DNA of 38,533 nt. Origin: a virus. Lineage: Duplodnaviria > Heunggongvirae > Uroviricota > Caudoviricetes. The notes under the pieces are model-generated. The model saw nothing but the letters and a program-made list of their open reading frames with translations, was not told where the DNA came from and made no database searches. The position numbers and the translations under genes are program-made. Of this stretch, positions 10,209 through 35,455 are shown piece after piece. The DNA lies in IMG/VR virus record IMGVR_UViG_2721755643_000003, positions 1 through 38,533 of that record. One strand, 5' to 3'. Position 1 is the first letter of the stretch. Every line of letters starts with the position of its first letter.

Positions 10209-12290
10209 TCACCCCGCTGCCAGTTCGCTGTATTCCGCCAGTTGTCCCGGTGTCGCCAGGGTGTCAACGTGCAGTGTGATATCCTGCTTAACGTTGTTAT
10301 TGGTGACTTTGTCGCCCCGGTTGTTGCTTATCTGGTGACTTACCGGCCCGCCCTGGATGGCGGCGCTACGGTTGCCAGTGATAAGCTCCGGGGCGGGTGT
10401 CGGTGCGACGGTCTGTTGTGCGGTGCTGATATTGACACCGGGGATTTTGTTGAGCTTCTCTGCTATCCAGTTCCATGTCCCGGTAAAGGCGCTCTTAATG
10501 GAATCCCATATGCCGTCAAAGAGCTTGCCAATTCCAGCTGTGATATTGCCGAATGTGTCGGCCAGCGAGAAATTTTTAAACCAGTTCGTCAGATTGTCCC
10601 ATCCGGCTTTAATGCTGTTCCATGCATCATCAAACCAGCCCACCACAGCGTTAATGACTTTTAGCAGGGCACTGAAAGCTTCCGTGTCCATGATGGCGGC
10701 TTTAATACTGTCCCAGTATTTGATAGCCAGACAGATCCCTACGGCAAGTGCGGCAATGGCGAGAATAATCAGGGTTATGGGACTTATCAGGAGTTGAAGC
10801 GCACCGCCTGCGAATGCCGTCGCCACGCCCCACAGGCGCATTGCAACCGCGCCCGCACGTAACACTACGTTCCAGGCTACGATCGCTGCTTTACAGATCC
10901 CTGCCCAAAGAGCGACCAGCTTTGACCACACCCAGACGGCTTTTTCCTGAATCCATAGCCCCATCAGGCCAAGACGGGTTGAAAGCAGGGAGGGGCGTAA
11001 TAAATCCAGGGTGAAGATTAGTCCTTTCCATGCGCCTTTCAGCACGCCAGCAATTCCGCTGAGCCCGGTCATGATAAAGCCGAAGGCCCCCATCGTGATA
11101 CTGGCAAGCGCCCCTGCTGCGGCAAAGGCGAGGGTCATTGCAGTGATATATCCCAGCCAGCGGGCAATATTGGGGAACGTATCCAGCCATTTCATGAAGG
11201 CTTTCCCGCCGGTGATGATTTTTTGCAGGAACGGGGCAAAGACGGGATCGAGCCGCAGACCAATGCTGACGCGAACCTGCTCCAGTAAAGAATTAACCTG
11301 ATCCCACGGGTCAACCATCTTTTTCGCCATTTCGATGGCTTTATCCATGCCTTTGATGTTACCTAATGTATTGATGTTCCGTTTCAGCCCGTCAACATCT
11401 CCGGCCAGTAGTTTAATCATGGACACCGCTTCATCGCTGCCAAAGGCTTTTTTCAGCAGGTCTGCATCTGCCACTTTTGACAGATCGCCAAACTTTCCTT
11501 TAATCAGGTCGATGATACCGGTAATGCTTCTGGCACTGCCGTCCCGGTTGGTAAAGTTCAGCCCCAGCACTTTTTGCGCATTCCCAATCCCCGCCAGGAA
11601 TGATTTATATTTGGTTCCCGCCTCGCTGCCTGACATGGTGGACTGGAGCTGTCCCAGTACGGCGAACTGTTCAGCGGCAGATACCTTCATTGCCTGCGCG
11701 TTGGCACCCAGCGCAGTAAAGGCAGCAGACATTTCATTACCGGTAGTTTTGAACACCTGAACGGCGGTTGCGGTCTGCCCGGCAATTTGTTCAACCCACT
11801 GCGTGCGCCCCATCTTCTCTGCGGTATTTTTAAAAACACCGTACATGGTGCCCATATAGTTAGTAATGGTGGCCGTGTCTGATTTGGTGGCTTTGGCGAG
11901 AATGGCGGATGCTTCAGTAAATTTTGGCAGTTCGTCACCCTGAAGTCCTGCGATGGCGGACTGGATATCGTAGGCGCTGCGGACGAAATTGCTGGCGCTT
12001 TCGCCGTAGTTAATGGCAAACGTCTGTGAAGTTTTACGCAGCTGATCGAGTGTTTTATTTGCCACATCCAGCGAGCTGACTTCGGCCAGCGCGGCTTCCA
12101 TGTCGCGGGCGGGGTTGACCAGTCCTTTTATTCCCTGAGCAGCCCCCCATAACCCGGCCACACCAAAACCGAGACGTTTAAAGTCGGCTGTTGCCTTGTC
12201 AGCAAATCCGGTCACAGCCGATTGCGCCTGTTTTAAGGGTCTCGTCAGCTTATCAACCAGACTTAGCGTAAAATCAAGTTCAGCAGCCAT
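10209..12290 (-). CDS. Tail tape measure protein
   Basis: 693 aa, Ala/Gly-rich with long hydrophobic segments in the C-terminal half; directly follows the chaperone frameshift pair; start ATG overlaps the stop of the frameshift extension. Confidence 0.8.
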   Translation of the reverse strand: MAAELDFTLSLVDKLTRPLKQAQSAVTGFADKATADFKRLGFGVAGLWGAAQGIKGLVNPARDMEAALAEVSSLDVANKTLDQLRKTSQTFAINYGESASNFVRSAYDIQSAIAGLQGDELPKFTEASAILAKATKSDTATITNYMGTMYGVFKNTAEKMGRTQWVEQIAGQTATAVQVFKTTGNEMSAAFTALGANAQAMKVSAAEQFAVLGQLQSTMSGSEAGTKYKSFLAGIGNAQKVLGLNFTNRDGSARSITGIIDLIKGKFGDLSKVADADLLKKAFGSDEAVSMIKLLAGDVDGLKRNINTLGNIKGMDKAIEMAKKMVDPWDQVNSLLEQVRVSIGLRLDPVFAPFLQKIITGGKAFMKWLDTFPNIARWLGYITAMTLAFAAAGALASITMGAFGFIMTGLSGIAGVLKGAWKGLIFTLDLLRPSLLSTRLGLMGLWIQEKAVWVWSKLVALWAGICKAAIVAWNVVLRAGAVAMRLWGVATAFAGGALQLLISPITLIILAIAALAVGICLAIKYWDSIKAAIMDTEAFSALLKVINAVVGWFDDAWNSIKAGWDNLTNWFKNFSLADTFGNITAGIGKLFDGIWDSIKSAFTGTWNWIAEKLNKIPGVNISTAQQTVAPTPAPELITGNRSAAIQGGPVSHQISNNRGDKVTNNNVKQDITLHVDTLATPGQLAEYSELAAG

Positions 12291-12487
12291 TACCCACCTT
12301 TAAATGCTCTCGCAATGCCGTTATTGACGGCAATACTCATGTTTTCGAAATAACGGTTGTCCAGCCAGACCGCAGCGGCAATGTCTTCCGGTGTGTCCTC
12401 GCCATCCGGTAGCCAGTGGCGGCGTAATACCAGATATTGCGCGTAGCCGTTGCGCTCAATGCCGGACAGTGCCGCCTTTATTTTTTT
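12290..12487 (-). other. -1 programmed frameshift extension of the tail assembly chaperone (E' analogue)
   Basis: The chaperone ORF ends ...GTA AAA AAA TAA; a slippery A7 run (+ strand T7 at 12481-12487) sits just before the stop; the -1 frame is open for about 62 codons to a TAA that overlaps the tape measure ATG. Confidence 0.65.
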
Positions 12488-12777
12488 ACGGTGATATCCA
12501 GATTGACGGCAAAATCTTCATTGAGTTTTGCTGCCATCTGAAGGGCTGCTCCCGGGCGGTGAATGAGCTTCTCCAGTTTCTCTTTGTCTTCCGGGTGTAC
12601 ACAGCGCATCAGGTAGTTTTTGGCTGGCGCCACCTTGTTATCCATCGTTATTTCATTCACGAACTTGTTGTAGACAGCTTCGGTCGGGGCGAAGCGAATG
12701 TCCTCGCCTGCGACGGTCAGGGTGATGATGGTGGTATTTTCGTCTTTCATGCTATTTTCCCCGGTGAGTGGTGCCAT
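12478..12777 (-). CDS. Tail assembly chaperone (gpE / lambda G analogue)
   Basis: 99 aa immediately upstream of tape measure; ends in slippery poly-A; canonical position for the G/GT or E/E+E' pair. Confidence 0.6.
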   Translation of the reverse strand: MAPLTGENSMKDENTTIITLTVAGEDIRFAPTEAVYNKFVNEITMDNKVAPAKNYLMRCVHPEDKEKLEKLIHRPGAALQMAAKLNEDFAVNLDITVKK

Positions 12778-12780
12778 TTT

Positions 12781-13245
12781 TTAATGACATTGTTCAGTAA
12801 TGTACTGTTGCAGGCCGTTCACTTGTGCAACGACGGCTTTCGCTTCGGCTCTGAGATGCTGATAATCCCGTTCAGCGTCCGGAGTAAGTCGGGCGGCGGT
12901 TGCATCAGTTGAGCCGGTGGCGGTGGTATCACGCGTGGCGGCGGGCATACAGACGGCGTGGAGCTGCAACCGGCGACGGCCAGAAGCAAGATCGGCGCGT
13001 AACTTTTCGGATTCAGCTTTTGCATTGGCGAGCTCCTTTGTGTATTTCGCATCAAGCGCGGCGTTCTGGCGCTGACGCAGTGTCATGTCGTCAATGGTCT
13101 GCTGTCGGGTGTCGGCAAGATTTACGGCTTTCTGGCGGGCTTTTTCTGCCCTGGTGAAGCGGTTGTGCCAGTAGTCAGCTGTGAAGCCGAGCACGGCCAC
13201 GGCGACGACCATGAAGACGATAAAGGCGAGTGTTGCGCGTTTCAT
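12781..13245 (-). CDS. Rz-like i-spanin (lysis protein)
   Basis: 154 aa with N-terminal TM (MKRATLAFIVFMVVAVAVLG) and Ala/Arg/Glu-rich coiled-coil-like remainder; follows the endolysin; contains an embedded lipoprotein ORF. Confidence 0.7.
   Translation of the reverse strand: MKRATLAFIVFMVVAVAVLGFTADYWHNRFTRAEKARQKAVNLADTRQQTIDDMTLRQRQNAALDAKYTKELANAKAESEKLRADLASGRRRLQLHAVCMPAATRDTTATGSTDATAARLTPDAERDYQHLRAEAKAVVAQVNGLQQYITEQCH
12819..13025 (-). CDS. Rz1-like o-spanin (outer-membrane lipoprotein) embedded in Rz, +1 frame
   Basis: Within track ORF 12819..13055; from the internal Met: MQKLNPKSYAPILLLAVAGCSST with lipobox LAVAGC, then Pro-rich stretch; embedded architecture as in lambda Rz/Rz1. 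Confidence 0.6.
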   Translation of the reverse strand: MQKLNPKSYAPILLLAVAGCSSTPSVCPPPRVIPPPPAQLMQPPPDLLRTLNGIISISEPKRKPSLHK

Positions 13246-13251
13246 GTGGCC

Positions 13252-13695
13252 TTACCTCTGTCCCAGAAACATTGCCCGCTCACGTCCGCGACGCGGGGCC
13301 AGAATTGTCGGGTTACTGCCTGCGCGGCTCCATTTCAGGAAAGCATCAGCGGCGGCGGTGTAGTTGCCGGCGTTTAACTGACGGCGAACGGTGGAACCGA
13401 TAAAAGCGTCAGCGCCGATATTGAAAATCAGGCTACACAACGCGTCATACTGACTCTGGTTCAGCGGAACTGTTACCCGTTCAGCGATGCAGTGCTCCAC
13501 CCATGACAGATCGTCGCGTAGCAGTCTGTCGGCGGTGTCCTGGGTGATGGTCATGCCTTTGTGAACTGCGACACCATCAACCTTTCCTGTGTGACCTGTA
13601 CCAATGGTCCATACGCCGCGCGGATCGGGGTAAGCGGTCAGTTTGCAGTTTTCTTCGCGTTTAAGTGCGGCCAGCCCGTTGTCTGAAATTTTCAT
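13252..13695 (-). CDS. Endolysin (phage lysozyme/muramidase, GH24-like)
   Basis: 147 aa; N-terminal LKREENCKLTAYPDPRGVWTIGTGHT matches the T4-lysozyme-type E...D...T catalytic region; 4-nt overlap with the holin. Confidence 0.85.
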   Translation of the reverse strand: MKISDNGLAALKREENCKLTAYPDPRGVWTIGTGHTGKVDGVAVHKGMTITQDTADRLLRDDLSWVEHCIAERVTVPLNQSQYDALCSLIFNIGADAFIGSTVRRQLNAGNYTAAADAFLKWSRAGSNPTILAPRRGRERAMFLGQR

Positions 13696-14030
13696 TCGTC
13701 ACTTTTCCCTGCAAATTTCTTTGTGATGAACACACCCAGTGCCCGGATATGTTCAACACCAATAAGGCCAATTGCGGCACCGATACCGACGCGCCAGTCT
13801 TCGGTCAGCCATGCGACGGGGACCGGCTTAATGAGGGTGAATGCCGCCACGGCCAGCAGGCAACACAACGGCACCTCAAGCAAAAGACGACGCCAGCTGC
13901 GGCCTGTGTAAAACACTCTGAGTGCTGCAATGACGGCAGTCATCAGCAGACTGTCAAGAGGGATATCACCACGTAACCAGTCTTTGATTATCGCCAGCCA
14001 GTCGCTCCAGTTGTGGGGGGTGCTTTGCAT
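13692..14030 (-). CDS. Holin (putative)
   Basis: 112 aa with 2-3 predicted TM segments and charged C-terminus; immediately upstream of and overlapping the endolysin start. Confidence 0.6.
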   Translation of the reverse strand: MQSTPHNWSDWLAIIKDWLRGDIPLDSLLMTAVIAALRVFYTGRSWRRLLLEVPLCCLLAVAAFTLIKPVPVAWLTEDWRVGIGAAIGLIGVEHIRALGVFITKKFAGKSDE

Positions 14031-14038
14031 TGTCTTTC

Positions 14039-14500
14039 CTATTGGTTCATGATGTCCCGAACATCGGTGGCGCTGAGAACCGGAACACCGTCAATTTTGA
14101 CGAACTCCGGCGAAGTCACCATAAATTTGATTTTATGGCTTATGTTGTCACCGCCCTTGCTGTCGATATTCAGCAGGTTACTGATCAGCAGTTTGCAACC
14201 AAAGGCTTCCACCCTGAGTTCTGTCTTTGCTGCACGGGCAAAGAAGAGAAAGTCGGCTTCTTCGATGTCGCGCCAGCTCCCTGCTTCACGCGCGGCTTCA
14301 CCAAGAAGCTGGAAGTTAACGGTATCCAGTTCAATTTCACCGCCGGCTTCCACGTCGCCGCGTACCCAGCCATCAGGTACACCGCGCTCCTGAATGGCTT
14401 TGGTGTTGTCGGTAATATCAAGGGTGGCGGTTTTTACGTGAACGATGCGGCCATTAAATGACGTGTCAAAGCTCATACCACTGATGCGTTCGGTGTTCAT
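14039..14500 (-). CDS. Tail tube protein (putative)
   Basis: 153 aa directly after the putative sheath gene and upstream of chaperone/tape measure; size and position typical; no motif verified. Confidence 0.5.
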   Translation of the reverse strand: MNTERISGMSFDTSFNGRIVHVKTATLDITDNTKAIQERGVPDGWVRGDVEAGGEIELDTVNFQLLGEAAREAGSWRDIEEADFLFFARAAKTELRVEAFGCKLLISNLLNIDSKGGDNISHKIKFMVTSPEFVKIDGVPVLSATDVRDIMNQ

Positions 14501-14503
14501 GGG

Positions 14504-15628
14504 TTACTCTCCGCTTTCGTCCAGCATGATGCTGATGGTGATTTCTTTCGGGCAGTTATACGGGCGAACCACGATCGCAATCTGCACTTTGTCTTTTTCC
14601 GGCCATGAGATTTTTACGTCGCCGTCGTGCGGTGACATGCAAAGGCCAGGGAATACCGTGCCGTTGATTTTCAGGCTCTTTGCGCCGTCGCGCATGGGCT
14701 TCGCGAAAAGCTGTTGGTGCGCGGCCACACTTGCCGGGGTGGAGTTCAGTGAGCGATTGGCGATTTTTGGGATAGCCAGCAAACGCACCTGACGGGCCAT
14801 TTCATCGGCAACGCGCAGATATTCGATAGCCTGATAATCGCCACCGTCCACATCGAGCGTGACGCCGTCGGCCCAGTAGTAACCTTCGTAGTCGGGATAC
14901 CACGTTGGTACGCTGAAACGCGCCCTGTTCAGGGCCCTGATGGTGGCAATGTCCAGTTCGCGCTTGTCGCTGTCCTGCGGTTTATCGTTGCGGCCCATAT
15001 TGACCAGTGCGCCGGTTGCAACACGGGCGGGGGAATCAGCAATCGTCACTGATGGATTGCAAAGGCGACCGGCCAGTATCCCCGGTTCATTGCCGAACAG
15101 CATCGGGGTAAGCTGCACCGCGTAAGCGGCAATGCCTTTCTGTAGTCCGGTCATGACGGTGACGTATTCTGACCACTTCTCGCCTGTTCCGCAGCCGCGA
15201 ACAGCCAGGATAAACCATGTCCAGCGCTGGAAGGTGTTATTGAGTTCGCTGCGCAGTTGCTGCGCTTTGTCGATATCGTTACCTGAGGCGTTAGCGCGAA
15301 CAACGACAACGCCTTCCACCGAGAGGGTGGCCTGTGCATCCATAACCACATCAGCCCACGTTCGGGTCTGACCAGAAGGCTGGGGTGTCTGCACGGTTGC
15401 CAGCCAGATCATGGCATTTTGTCCGGCATTATCCAGAAACGCCTGCACGTTACTGCGTAACAATGAATCCTTTGTTCCTAACAGCGAGTCAAGATCGGTT
15501 TGTGCTGTAACCGGTGTCGGGAGAATGGCTTTTGTATGCTCGCCCACCATCAGCAGGGTGCAGGCGATCCCACGCTTGCTTCCGCTGTGGGTGTTGAGCT
15601 GATTAATTGTGACCTGTGGAAACGTCAT
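14504..15628 (-). CDS. Tail sheath protein (putative)
   Basis: 374 aa; first large gene of the tail block, followed by a tube-sized gene; positional and size inference. Confidence 0.5.
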   Translation of the reverse strand: MTFPQVTINQLNTHSGSKRGIACTLLMVGEHTKAILPTPVTAQTDLDSLLGTKDSLLRSNVQAFLDNAGQNAMIWLATVQTPQPSGQTRTWADVVMDAQATLSVEGVVVVRANASGNDIDKAQQLRSELNNTFQRWTWFILAVRGCGTGEKWSEYVTVMTGLQKGIAAYAVQLTPMLFGNEPGILAGRLCNPSVTIADSPARVATGALVNMGRNDKPQDSDKRELDIATIRALNRARFSVPTWYPDYEGYYWADGVTLDVDGGDYQAIEYLRVADEMARQVRLLAIPKIANRSLNSTPASVAAHQQLFAKPMRDGAKSLKINGTVFPGLCMSPHDGDVKISWPEKDKVQIAIVVRPYNCPKEITISIMLDESGE

Positions 15629-35104: not shown

Positions 35105-35455
35105 TTATAACTCAGCCTGTTTAATAAAATTTTCTCCGTAAAGAAGGCGATCAACTGTGCGTAGCGCTTCGTACAACGTGAAATCCTGCCCGAACTGATT
35201 GTCGCCGCAGCTCAGAGCAAAAATGCGGTTTCCGGTAAACGGATTGCGCGGGTATTTGTGGACCACTATTCCAGCTTTCTCAATCATCCAGGTATGCTCG
35301 CCAATTTGTTTTACTGTATGGCCATCTGGTGTTGCGTGCGTCTCGTTCAGGTTATAGCGACTGTTACTACGTGATGCACTGGTAGCGACGTGGTGTACAT
35401 GGCGTTCTACGCCATTACGAAATTTGGAGTATGGATTATTAGTGTTTTTTTTCAT
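35105..35455 (-). CDS. Hypothetical early protein
   Basis: 116-aa ORF in the early operon. Confidence 0.35.
   Translation of the reverse strand: MKKNTNNPYSKFRNGVERHVHHVATSASRSNSRYNLNETHATPDGHTVKQIGEHTWMIEKAGIVVHKYPRNPFTGNRIFALSCGDNQFGQDFTLYEALRTVDRLLYGENFIKQAEL

What the first reader, a model, noticed from the sequence alone, without database searches (positions are those of the whole stretch)
12290..12777. Programmed -1 frameshift site joining the tail assembly chaperone to a downstream extension that ends at the tape measure start codon
The chaperone ORF ends in GTA AAA AAA TAA. From the A7 run the -1 frame is open for about 62 codons (..KKIKAALSGIERNGYAQYLVLRRHWLPDGEDTPEDIAAAVWLDNRYFENMSIAVNNGIARAFKGG) and terminates in the TAA that overlaps the tape measure ATG, while the other alternative frame stops immediately. 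This is the conserved G/GT (lambda) or E/E+E' (P2) arrangement, and the ORF track cannot show it because the extension has no start codon.
Basis: seen in the sequence. Interest (0 to 1): 0.5.

Follow-up and report, generated by a model that had tools for sequence, protein, structure and literature searches.

The report
Tail chaperone -1 frameshift, HP1-type prophage
An E. coli prophage makes a longer version of its tail assembly chaperone when ribosomes slip back one base on a run of seven A's, which is the ordinary, widely conserved phage trick, although public annotation miscalls the extension as a separate gene of unknown function.

Summary
On the minus strand the chaperone ORF (12777/12750..12478) ends ACC GTA AAA AAA TAA. 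The -1 frame then runs 63 sense codons to a TAA (12292..12290) that shares one base with the tape measure ATG (12290..12288). The +1 frame is closed.

The window alone is weak evidence: A7 runs and long open off-frames are common there. Comparison settles it:
- All 76 related phage records (HP1, HP2, K139, phiO18P, F108, ESSI-2, phi3, ACA1 and others) carry chaperone and extension homology in two frames.
- In every one of the 28 loci inspected the extension is in the -1 frame.
- The phased heptamer A_AAA_AAA/C/G is present in 19 of 19 lineages and abuts the stop in 17.
- Substitutions fall on third positions of the -1 frame (1/0/15 and 5/2/26).
- No in-frame start codon is conserved.
- In three phages the two frames overlap by only the heptamer.
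- No conserved downstream RNA structure exists.

This is a G/GT- or E/E+E'-type programmed -1 frameshift in the HP1-type tail module of a P2-like prophage, and no experiment has tested it. The extension equals Pfam DUF6890 and phrog_7050, both labelled "unknown function". RefSeq calls it a separate CDS with an ATA start. It is a new member of a known kind, of low interest apart from the annotation fix.

The parts
12478..12777 (-). Tail assembly chaperone ORF, 0-frame. It is 99 aa from ATG 12777. The probable true start is ATG 12750 (M10), giving 90 aa. Stop TAA is at 12480-12478.
12481..12487 (-). Slippery heptamer A_AAA_AAA, phased X_XXY_YYZ in the 0-frame (GT[A AAA AAA] TAA) and immediately followed by the 0-frame stop.
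   Evidence: Sequence. A homologous heptamer A_AAA_AAA/C/G is present in 19 of 19 lineages and abuts the stop in 17. These are the only invariant run of columns in alignment A2. In ESSI-2, ev239 and YenM_324 the -1 frame opens only 3 codons before the 0-frame stop, which confines the shift to this heptamer.
12290..12481 (-). -1 frame extension: 63 sense codons (ATA 12481-12479 to GGG 12295-12293) plus TAA 12292-12290. It encodes IKAALSGIERNGYAQYLVLRRHWLPDGEDTPEDIAAAVWLDNRYFENMSIAVNNGIARAFKGG, which equals Pfam DUF6890.
   Evidence: Translation. Pfam DUF6890 E 4e-23. phrog_7050 E 4.9e-24. It is in the -1 frame in every one of the 28 loci inspected. Third-position substitution bias is 1/0/15 and 5/2/26. 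No conserved start codon exists. AF2 predicts a helical hairpin with pLDDT 92.
10209..12290 (-). Tail tape measure protein gene (693 aa). Its ATG 12290-12288 overlaps the extension's TAA by one base (TAATG), and an AAGGTGG Shine-Dalgarno-like sequence lies inside the last extension codons.
   Evidence: ORF list. Pfam PhageMin_Tail E 1.7e-28. phrog_28 E 4.4e-90. Junction sequence.
14039..15628 (-). Context: HP1-type tail sheath (14504-15628) and tail tube (14039-14500) genes lie upstream. They are separated from the chaperone by a holin-endolysin-Rz cassette (12781-14030).
   Evidence: Pfam DUF2586, Phage_HP1_Orf24, Phage_holin_3_1, Phage_lysozyme and Phage_lysis. phrog_907 tail sheath and phrog_1182 tail protein. 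HP1, K139 and others have the same order.

Best explanation
This is a programmed -1 ribosomal frameshift in the tail assembly chaperone gene of an HP1-type (Peduoviridae) prophage of E. coli.

Most ribosomes read ...ACC GTA AAA AAA and terminate at TAA, making the roughly 10 kDa chaperone. A minority slip back one base on A_AAA_AAA. This happens either as a tandem slip of the two lysyl-tRNAs, or as a slip of the P-site lysyl-tRNA while the adjacent stop codon waits in the A site. These ribosomes then read ATA AAG GCG... and add a 63-residue helical domain, giving a fused product of about 17-18 kDa (153 or 162 aa). It ends one base into the tape measure start codon.

By analogy with lambda gpG/gpGT and P2 gpE/gpE+E', the short and long forms are made in a fixed ratio from one mRNA. 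Both would bind the tape measure protein through the shared N-terminal part. The extension would recruit the tail tube subunit to start polymerisation, and neither would stay in the virion.

Shown here: the two-frame coding arrangement, the slip motif and its phasing, purifying selection on the extension, and the absence of an independent start. Inferred: that slippage is ribosomal, its frequency, and the assembly role.
For: - Anatomy: the 0-frame ends GTA AAA AAA TAA, the -1 frame is open 63 codons to a TAA overlapping the tape measure ATG, and the +1 frame is closed.
- The N-terminal part is Phage_TAC_10 (E 4.5e-31) and the extension is DUF6890 (E 4e-23).
- tblastn with the fused product finds 76 phage records. 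All match in two pieces and cover at least 93% of the query.
- In every one of the 28 loci inspected the extension is in the -1 frame, down to 33% chaperone identity.
- The heptamer A_AAA_AAA/C/G is present and phased in 19 of 19 lineages. Elsewhere in these genes GTA is 17% of Val codons and AAA is 66% of Lys codons.
- In three phages the frame overlap is only 3 codons, which pins the shift to the heptamer.
- Substitutions fall on third positions of the -1 frame: 1/0/15, 5/2/26 and 3/1/14.
- No conserved in-frame start codon exists. The window has only an ATG at codon 47 of 63, while residues conserved across the family begin at extension residue 8.
- The extension is predicted to be a confidently folded helical hairpin, pLDDT 92.
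- A_AAA_AAA, A_AAA_AAG and A_AAA_AAC frameshift above 0.1% in E. coli without any stimulator, and IS elements use them (PMC4066793).
- G/GT-type frameshifting is widely conserved in long-tailed phages (PMC5009743).
- The ACA1 record already carries a projected joined CDS.
Against: - There is no protein-level or reporter evidence for this lineage in the searchable literature.
- The window shows no stimulatory RNA structure (z -0.9 and +1.2), and none is conserved (0 pairs; 46% paired, equal to shuffles). The efficiency therefore cannot be predicted and may be low.
- A_AAA_AAC, used by most relatives, is a poor shifter in E. coli.
- Two metagenomic relatives (L011, L012) lack a strict heptamer and have only A_AAG-type tetramers.
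- There is no detectable sequence homology to the proven P2 or lambda proteins, so the assembly role is analogy only.
- The extension has no structural neighbour.
Confidence: 0.88

Rival explanations
1. Transcriptional slippage. RNA polymerase adds one extra A on the A7 template run, so a fraction of mRNAs read GTA AAA AAA ATA AAG... in frame. This gives exactly the same fused protein without any ribosomal slip.
For: The window has a homopolymeric A7 run. AAAAAAA is noted as under-represented in E. coli genes, possibly because of transcriptional slippage (PMC4066793). The product would be identical, so protein data alone cannot separate the two.
Against: Ten of 19 lineages have A6C and one has A6G. 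These runs of six are shorter than the runs usually associated with productive polymerase slippage (own knowledge). In all 19 the run is phased as X_XXY_YYZ in the 0-frame, which matters for tRNA re-pairing but not for polymerase. L011 and L012 have only A3-A4 runs.
Confidence: 0.05
2. Independent gene. The extension is translated on its own as a small 'DUF6890 family protein', as RefSeq annotates it. Translation would start from a non-canonical start (ATA at 12481) or by termination-reinitiation after the chaperone stop.
For: RefSeq NZ_CP065615 carries such a CDS. 302 database proteins of 45-76 aa carry only PF21830, and none of the 120 listed is fused to a chaperone domain. In HP1, F108 and SI7 a GTG lies at extension codon 4, preceded in HP1 by GGAG.
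Against: The annotated starts are ATA (window) and CTG (Serratia), placed exactly on the slip site with no Shine-Dalgarno. Annotated N-termini vary from 45 to 76 aa, as expected of arbitrary calls. No start position is conserved across the 20 lineages. The window has no ATG/GTG/TTG before codon 47. This rival would leave unexplained the conserved, phased heptamer and the constant -1 relation to the chaperone frame.
Confidence: 0.04
3. Decayed gene or sequencing error. An originally continuous ~153-aa gene carries a one-base deletion in a mutable A-run, so the two-frame arrangement is a defect of this prophage.
For: Homopolymer runs are indel hotspots, and the element is a prophage found in only 5 of 5426 complete E. 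coli genomes.
Against: The same frame break is present in all 76 phage records, including isolated plaque-forming phages (HP1, K139, ACA1, phiA051). It is also present in independently assembled genomes that are 100% identical here. None of the 120 database hits listed is an in-frame fusion. Both frames are under purifying selection.
Confidence: 0.01

Closest known systems
Phage P2 gpE / gpE+E' (Christie et al. 2002, PMID 12426340; annotated in NC_001895)
   Same: Both are myovirus-type (contractile tail) modules of the same family, Peduoviridae. In both, a ~90-aa chaperone gene sits just upstream of the tape measure gene. A -1 shift on a homopolymeric heptamer adds a ~55-63-aa extension whose end overlaps the tape measure start, with no start codon for the extension. 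P2's shift is experimentally proven according to the record's annotation.
   Different: No detectable sequence homology: hhalign probability is 0.4%. The Pfam families differ: Phage_TAC_7 plus Phage_P2_GpE in P2, against Phage_TAC_10 plus DUF6890 here. P2 slips on T_TTT_TTG 21 nt before the E stop, whereas here A_AAA_AAA abuts the stop. In P2 the chaperone directly follows the tube gene, whereas here a lysis cassette intervenes. The HP1 and P2 tail modules are reported as deeply diverged (PMC10612066).
Phage lambda gpG / gpGT (Levin et al. 1993; Xu et al. 2004, 2013, 2014, as summarised in PMC5009743)
   Same: [quoted passage not shown] In lambda the long form's extra domain acts in tube recruitment. 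No downstream RNA structure was found here (for the lambda model).
Pseudoalteromonas phage ACA1 gp36/gp36a (OR438928) and the HP1 orf26 family (Phage_TAC_10)
   Same: These are true homologues: tblastn identity is 37-42% over both frames. They have the same gene order and the same -1 relation. ACA1 is deposited with a joined CDS noted as a 'projected programmed frameshift analogous to that in phage P2'.
   Different: In ACA1 and Pseudomonas phi3 the heptamer lies 28 nt before the 0-frame stop instead of abutting it. HP1, K139, ESSI-2, phiO18P and others use A_AAA_AAC rather than A_AAA_AAA. Most records leave the extension unannotated or call it a separate hypothetical ORF.
IS-element and dnaX A_AAA_AAG/A frameshift sites in E. 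coli
   Same: They use the same lysyl-tRNA slippery heptamer class. A_AAA_AAA and A_AAA_AAG make up 72% of IS heptamers, and A_AAA_AAC is also used there (PMC4066793).
   Different: dnaX and many IS sites rely on a downstream stem-loop or pseudoknot and/or an upstream Shine-Dalgarno-like stimulator. No such element is found or conserved here. The only adjacent feature is the 0-frame stop codon.

Membership tests
G/GT-type tail assembly chaperone frameshift (lambda G/GT, P2 E/E+E' class) | The gene pair lies between the major tail (tube) gene and the tape measure gene, immediately upstream of the tape measure gene. | tested here: met
   The order on the minus strand is sheath 15628-14504, tube 14500-14039, lysis cassette, chaperone 12777-12478, extension, then tape measure 12290-10209. 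The lysis cassette insertion is shared with HP1, K139 and others.
G/GT-type tail assembly chaperone frameshift (lambda G/GT, P2 E/E+E' class) | The second ORF overlaps the 3' end of the first in the -1 frame and lacks its own translation start. | tested here: met
   The -1 frame is open from 12 codons before the stop to 63 codons after it. The only canonical start is at codon 47. No start is conserved in 20 lineages.
G/GT-type tail assembly chaperone frameshift (lambda G/GT, P2 E/E+E' class) | A slippery sequence, phased X_XXY_YYZ, lies inside the overlap and is conserved in relatives. | tested here: met
   A_AAA_AAA at 12487-12481. A homologous heptamer is present in 19 of 19 lineages. The overlap is restricted to the heptamer in three phages. 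L011 and L012 have only A_AAG tetramers.
G/GT-type tail assembly chaperone frameshift (lambda G/GT, P2 E/E+E' class) | The extension is a real coding sequence under selection in the shifted frame. | tested here: met
   Substitutions by codon position are 1/0/15, 5/2/26 and 3/1/14. Pfam and PHROG profile hits are at E 4e-23 and 4.9e-24. The AF2 model has pLDDT 92.
G/GT-type tail assembly chaperone frameshift (lambda G/GT, P2 E/E+E' class) | The fused protein is actually produced at a low fixed ratio and is required for tail assembly. | not testable with these tools
   This needs a reporter assay, mass spectrometry or genetics. No such data for HP1-type phages were found in the library.
Tail assembly chaperone fold (HK97 gp10 / lambda gpG-like) | The N-terminal domain adopts the chaperone fold. 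| tested here: inconclusive
Pfam Phage_TAC_10 (HP1 orf26 family) | The sequence matches the family profile above the gathering threshold. | tested here: met
   107.3 bits against a cut-off of 25.7, E 4.5e-31, covering the full profile 1-82.
P2 gpE / gpE+E' (Pfam Phage_TAC_7 + Phage_P2_GpE) | Sequence homology to P2 gpE and to the E' extension. | tested here: not met
   hhalign of the 15-sequence fused family profile against P2 gpE+E' gives probability 0.4%, E 0.14. There is no cross-hit between the Pfam families even at E up to 10. An HWxP-13-W motif shared by eye is not statistically supported.
dnaX / IS3-type stimulated -1 frameshift | A downstream stem-loop or pseudoknot 5-9 nt after the heptamer. 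| tested here: not met
   Window folds give z -0.90 (91 nt) and +1.16 (51 nt). RNAalifold finds 0 pairs in 16 sequences. The ESSI-2-type hairpin is 46.1% paired against a shuffle mean of 46.4%.

The most novel reading that the evidence does not exclude
In the HP1-type lineage the frameshift may be a 'shifty stop' event rather than a classical stimulated tandem slip. The heptamer abuts the 0-frame stop in 17 of 19 lineages and no RNA stimulator is conserved. The short:long chaperone ratio could therefore be set by competition between release-factor binding at the stop and -1 slippage of the P-site Lys/Asn-tRNA. This would tie tail-assembly stoichiometry to the host's termination capacity. A related unexcluded reading is that only frameshifted ribosomes arrive directly at the tape measure start (TAATG), which would couple part of tape measure translation to the long form.
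Probability: 0.25. Interest if true: 0.35.

Novelty: new member of a known kind. Interest (0 to 1): 0.2.

Why it matters
Biologically this is the expected arrangement. Nearly all long-tailed phages make two chaperone forms by a -1 frameshift, and a relative of this prophage is already deposited with that prediction.

The practical value lies in annotation:
- Pfam DUF6890 and PHROG 7050, both labelled "unknown function", are the frameshift-encoded C-terminal domain of HP1-type tail assembly chaperones. They are not free-standing proteins.
- RefSeq currently represents the domain by CDSs with ATA or CTG starts placed on the slip site.
- At least 302 database entries share this artefact.

Correcting them to joined ribosomal-slippage CDSs would assign a function to a DUF and remove spurious small genes from many enterobacterial, Vibrio, Aeromonas, Pasteurellaceae and Pseudomonas prophages. 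The family also offers a clean natural series (A_AAA_AAA, A_AAA_AAC, A_AAA_AAG, with or without an adjacent stop) for studying unstimulated -1 frameshifting.

Tried and rejected
- Megablast of the region against the phage collection found nothing.
- The genome-contig scan with the chaperone alignment confirmed no relatives.
- Downstream stimulatory RNA: two window folds were not significant. Per-phage folds showed hairpins in some relatives. RNAalifold found no consensus, and the named ESSI-2-type hairpin is no better than shuffles and is absent from the window. I rejected it as a family feature.
- Homology to P2 gpE+E': an HWxP-13-W motif seen by eye was not supported by hhalign or by Pfam cross-hits.
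- Natural in-frame chaperone-extension fusions: none among the 120 hits listed. The remaining 182 hits were not inspected.
A first mixed alignment was misaligned and discarded. The two parts were modelled separately instead.
- The extension model has no significant neighbour in BFVD. The PDB sequence search found nothing, and NCBIfam has no model.
- The P2 paper (PMID 12426340) is not held. Literature searches for DUF6890, and for HP1 or K139 with frameshift, gave nothing relevant.
- A second heptamer with an open -1 frame (A_AAT_TTT near 35132) is simply a neighbouring gene with its own ATG.
- The naive probability (5e-19) ignores shared ancestry, and the pattern was used to locate the site, so it should not be quoted as a P value.
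Full report
**1. What is in the sequence**

The feature lies on the minus strand.
- The ORF 12777..12478 (99 aa) ends ACC GTA AAA AAA TAA. GTA is 12489-12487, the A7 run is 12487-12481 and TAA is 12480-12478.
- Read one base back, the -1 frame is open from 12 codons upstream of that stop. After the A-run it continues ATA AAG GCG GCA..., giving IKAALSGIERNGYAQYLVLRRHWLPDGEDTPEDIAAAVWLDNRYFENMSIAVNNGIARAFKGG. That is 63 sense codons.
- The extension ends at TAA 12292-12290, which shares base 12290 with the ATG of the 693-aa downstream ORF 12290..10209 (TAATG).
- The +1 frame has a TAA inside the slip site and is open for only 7 codons past the 0-frame stop.

The only differences are that there are 63 rather than "about 62" codons, and that the chaperone probably starts at the second ATG (12750), where all homologues begin.

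**2. Is it more than chance?**

From the window alone, barely.
- A7 runs occur 20 times against 11.7 expected.
- A shuffled extension stays open in the required frame 5.6% of the time.
- Of 109 mechanical ORFs of 80 aa or more, 34 have a -1 frame open for at least 60 codons beyond their stop.

The case rests on homology and comparison, described below.

**3. Identity of the parts**

- The 0-frame ORF is Pfam Phage_TAC_10 (E 4.5e-31). The extension is Pfam DUF6890, a "family of unknown function" (E 4e-23). The downstream gene is a tape measure protein (PhageMin_Tail).
- Upstream lie an HP1-type tube gene (Phage_HP1_Orf24), a sheath gene (DUF2586, phrog_907 tail sheath) and a holin-endolysin-Rz cassette.
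- The element is a P2-like prophage next to tRNA-Leu/Cys/Gly-pgsA-uvrC. It is present, 100% identical here, in 5 of 5426 complete E. coli genomes.
- RefSeq annotates the extension as a separate "DUF6890 family protein" CDS. Its first codon is ATA, made from the last A of the run plus the TA of the stop.

**4. Comparative evidence**

- *Two-frame homology.* tblastn with the hypothetical fused product finds 76 phage records. They include HP1, HP2, K139, Kappa, phiO18P, F108, ESSI-2, SI7, PV94, SMHB1, Pseudomonas phi3 and Pseudoalteromonas ACA1. Every one matches in two pieces covering at least 93% of the query.
- *Frame relation.* In every one of the 28 loci inspected the extension homology is in the -1 frame relative to the chaperone, down to 33% chaperone identity.
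- *The slip site.* It reads GTA (CTA in K139) AAA AAN in 19 of 19 lineages. It is A_AAA_AAA in 8, A_AAA_AAC in 10 and A_AAA_AAG in 1. The 0-frame stop follows directly in 17 of them, and in ACA1 and phi3 the heptamer lies 28 nt upstream of the stop.
- *Codon usage.* Elsewhere in the same genes GTA is only 17% of Val codons and AAA 66% of Lys codons. The synonymous positions of the heptamer are therefore constrained. No P value should be attached, because the lineages are related and the pattern was used to locate the site.
- *Shift window.* In ESSI-2, ev239 and YenM_324 the -1 frame is closed until 3 codons before the 0-frame stop. The shift can then only occur on the heptamer.
- *Selection.* Substitutions between close relatives concentrate on the third positions of the -1 frame. 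Counts are window vs L008 1/0/15, window vs L009 5/2/26, phiO18P vs A051 3/1/14 and Vcyc F8 vs B12 2/3/17.
- *No own start.* No in-frame ATG/GTG/TTG is conserved and none has a convincing Shine-Dalgarno. The window's only one is at codon 47, whereas conserved residues begin at extension residue 8 (the I of GIERNG).
- *Exceptions.* Two metagenomic relatives lack a strict heptamer but keep A_AAG-type tetramers at the homologous place. Sharma et al. rank that motif among the most shift-prone tetramers (PMC4066793).

**5. Stimulators**

The results were as follows.
- The window's 91-nt and 51-nt downstream segments fold no better than shuffles (z -0.90 and +1.16).
- Several relatives do have a local hairpin 6-9 nt after the heptamer.
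- RNAalifold finds no consensus pairs across 16 sequences.
- The specific ESSI-2/ev239 hairpin is 46.1% paired against a shuffle mean of 46.4%, and the window forms none of its pairs.
- There is no GGAG/AGGA-type element within about 20 nt upstream in the window (sequence).

The only conserved neighbour of the heptamer is the stop codon. Stops next to a shift site are the classical "shifty stop" context of Weiss et al. 1987 (listed in PMC5009743). That they stimulate -1 shifts in E. coli is my own knowledge and was not tested here.

Sharma et al. report that A_AAA_AAA, A_AAA_AAG and A_AAA_AAC shift above 0.1% without any stimulator. IS elements use all three although A_AAA_AAC is inefficient in E. 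coli.

**6. Mechanism proposed**

Most ribosomes terminate at TAA and release the roughly 10 kDa chaperone. A minority slip -1 on A_AAA_AAA, either as a tandem slip or as a P-site slip while the stop occupies the A site. Both routes give the same protein. These ribosomes add the 63-residue domain, producing a 153-aa product (162 aa if the first ATG is used).

The extension is predicted with high confidence to be a helical hairpin (pLDDT 92). It has helices 2-23 and 31-61, joined at the conserved LPxxxD loop.

The assembly role is inferred from lambda G/GT as summarised by Atkins et al. (PMC5009743). There the shared domain binds the tape measure protein, the extension recruits the tube protein, a fixed ratio of about 30:1 is essential, and neither form is present in virions. 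The same review says the efficiency is 2-3 times higher in P2-type phages.

**7. Rival explanations**

- *Transcriptional slippage* would give the same protein. It is disfavoured because most relatives have only A6 followed by C or G, and because the run is always phased for tRNA re-pairing.
- *An independent small gene*, as annotated, is disfavoured by several observations. Its starts are non-canonical (ATA here; CTG in a Serratia genome). Annotated N-termini vary from 45 to 76 aa among database hits. No start is conserved.
- *A decayed gene or sequencing error* is excluded, because the frame break is present in all relatives, including isolated plaque-forming phages.

**8. Comparison with known systems**

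- *Organisation.* It matches P2 E/E+E'. NC_001895 annotates a -1 shift at GGT TTT TTG, and the E' end overlaps the T gene start. It also matches lambda G/GT.
- *Sequence.* It is not detectably homologous to P2. hhalign gives probability 0.4%, and the Pfam families are Phage_TAC_7 plus Phage_P2_GpE against Phage_TAC_10 plus DUF6890. This agrees with the reported deep divergence of HP1-type and P2-type tail modules (PMC10612066).
- *True homologues.* These are HP1 orf26 and its relatives. Among them only ACA1 was seen to carry a joined CDS, noted as a [quoted passage not shown]. Most other records leave the extension blank or call a truncated hypothetical ORF.

**9. Novelty and value**

The phenomenon is textbook and has already been projected for a homologue, so this is a new member of a known kind with low intrinsic interest.

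The useful by-product is an annotation finding. Pfam DUF6890 and phrog_7050 are the frameshift extension of HP1-type chaperones. In the 5.8-billion-protein collection, 302 entries match the extension profile at E of 0.001 or better. All 120 listed are stand-alone fragments of 45-76 aa, and RefSeq's pipeline places their starts on the slip site.

No experiment on this lineage was found in the searchable literature. The fused product therefore remains a strongly supported prediction, not a demonstrated fact.

Noticed in passing
window 12819-13055 (-), inside Rz 12781-13245 (-): An embedded o-spanin gene (Rz1) lies in the +1 frame of the Rz-like i-spanin gene. The ORF has a lipobox (LLLAVAGC) and a proline-rich tail, and matches Pfam Rz1 at E 2.8e-10, above the cut-off. 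The RefSeq record annotates only the 'lysis protein' (Rz) here.
   Followed up: partly
window 12750-12777 (-): The longest chaperone ORF, which is also the RefSeq CDS, starts at ATG 12777 directly after the Rz stop, with no Shine-Dalgarno. All homologues start at the second ATG, 12750 (M10), which is preceded by GGGGAAAA. The first 14 residues are also disordered in the AF2 model. The annotated start is probably 9 codons too early.
   Followed up: partly
L001 20420-20611 (equals window 12481-12290); L029 1501-1692: RefSeq/PGAP represents the frameshift extension as a separate 'DUF6890 family protein' CDS starting at ATA (E. coli) or CTG (Serratia sp. root2), exactly on the slip site. 302 such database entries of variable length exist. 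Pfam DUF6890 and phrog_7050 appear to be built from these fragments.
   Followed up: yes
L017 (ESSI-2), L026 (ev239), L022 (PV94), L023 (SMHB1), L024/L025 (Vibrio cyclitrophicus phages), L019 (F108): 6-9 nt after the heptamer: Some relatives have a stable local hairpin just downstream of the slip site (z -2.5 to -4.4 in several). ESSI-2 and ev239 show an apparent compensatory change (GAGUCCA/UGGACUC against GAGUCCG/CGGACUC). It is not conserved family-wide and is absent from the window. It may be a lineage-specific stimulator.
   Followed up: partly
L011 3220-3245; L012 3240-3272 (IMG/VR metagenomic relatives): Two distant relatives keep the -1 extension but lack a strict X_XXY_YYZ heptamer. 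L011 has G_GTA_AAG, one AAA codon shorter than phi3's GTA AAA AAG. L012 has ATA AAA ATA AAG before its stop. They would have to shift on A_AAG/A_AAA tetramers.
   Followed up: no
window 12293-12400 (-) compared with L028 (P2) 745-850: The extension (RHWLPDGEDTPEDIAAAVW) and P2 E' (FHWPPSELYPMSLTELITW) share an HWxP motif followed by a W exactly 13 residues later. hhalign against the single P2 sequence gives no support (probability 0.4%). A profile-against-profile test with a P2-type E' family was not done.
   Followed up: partly
window 12293-12305 (-): The last codons of the extension (AAA GGT GGG, giving K G G) form a Shine-Dalgarno-like AAGGTGG just upstream of the tape measure ATG. The conserved C-terminal F-K/N-G of the family (AAAGG/AACGG in most relatives) may therefore be constrained by tape measure translation initiation as well as by protein function.
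   Followed up: no
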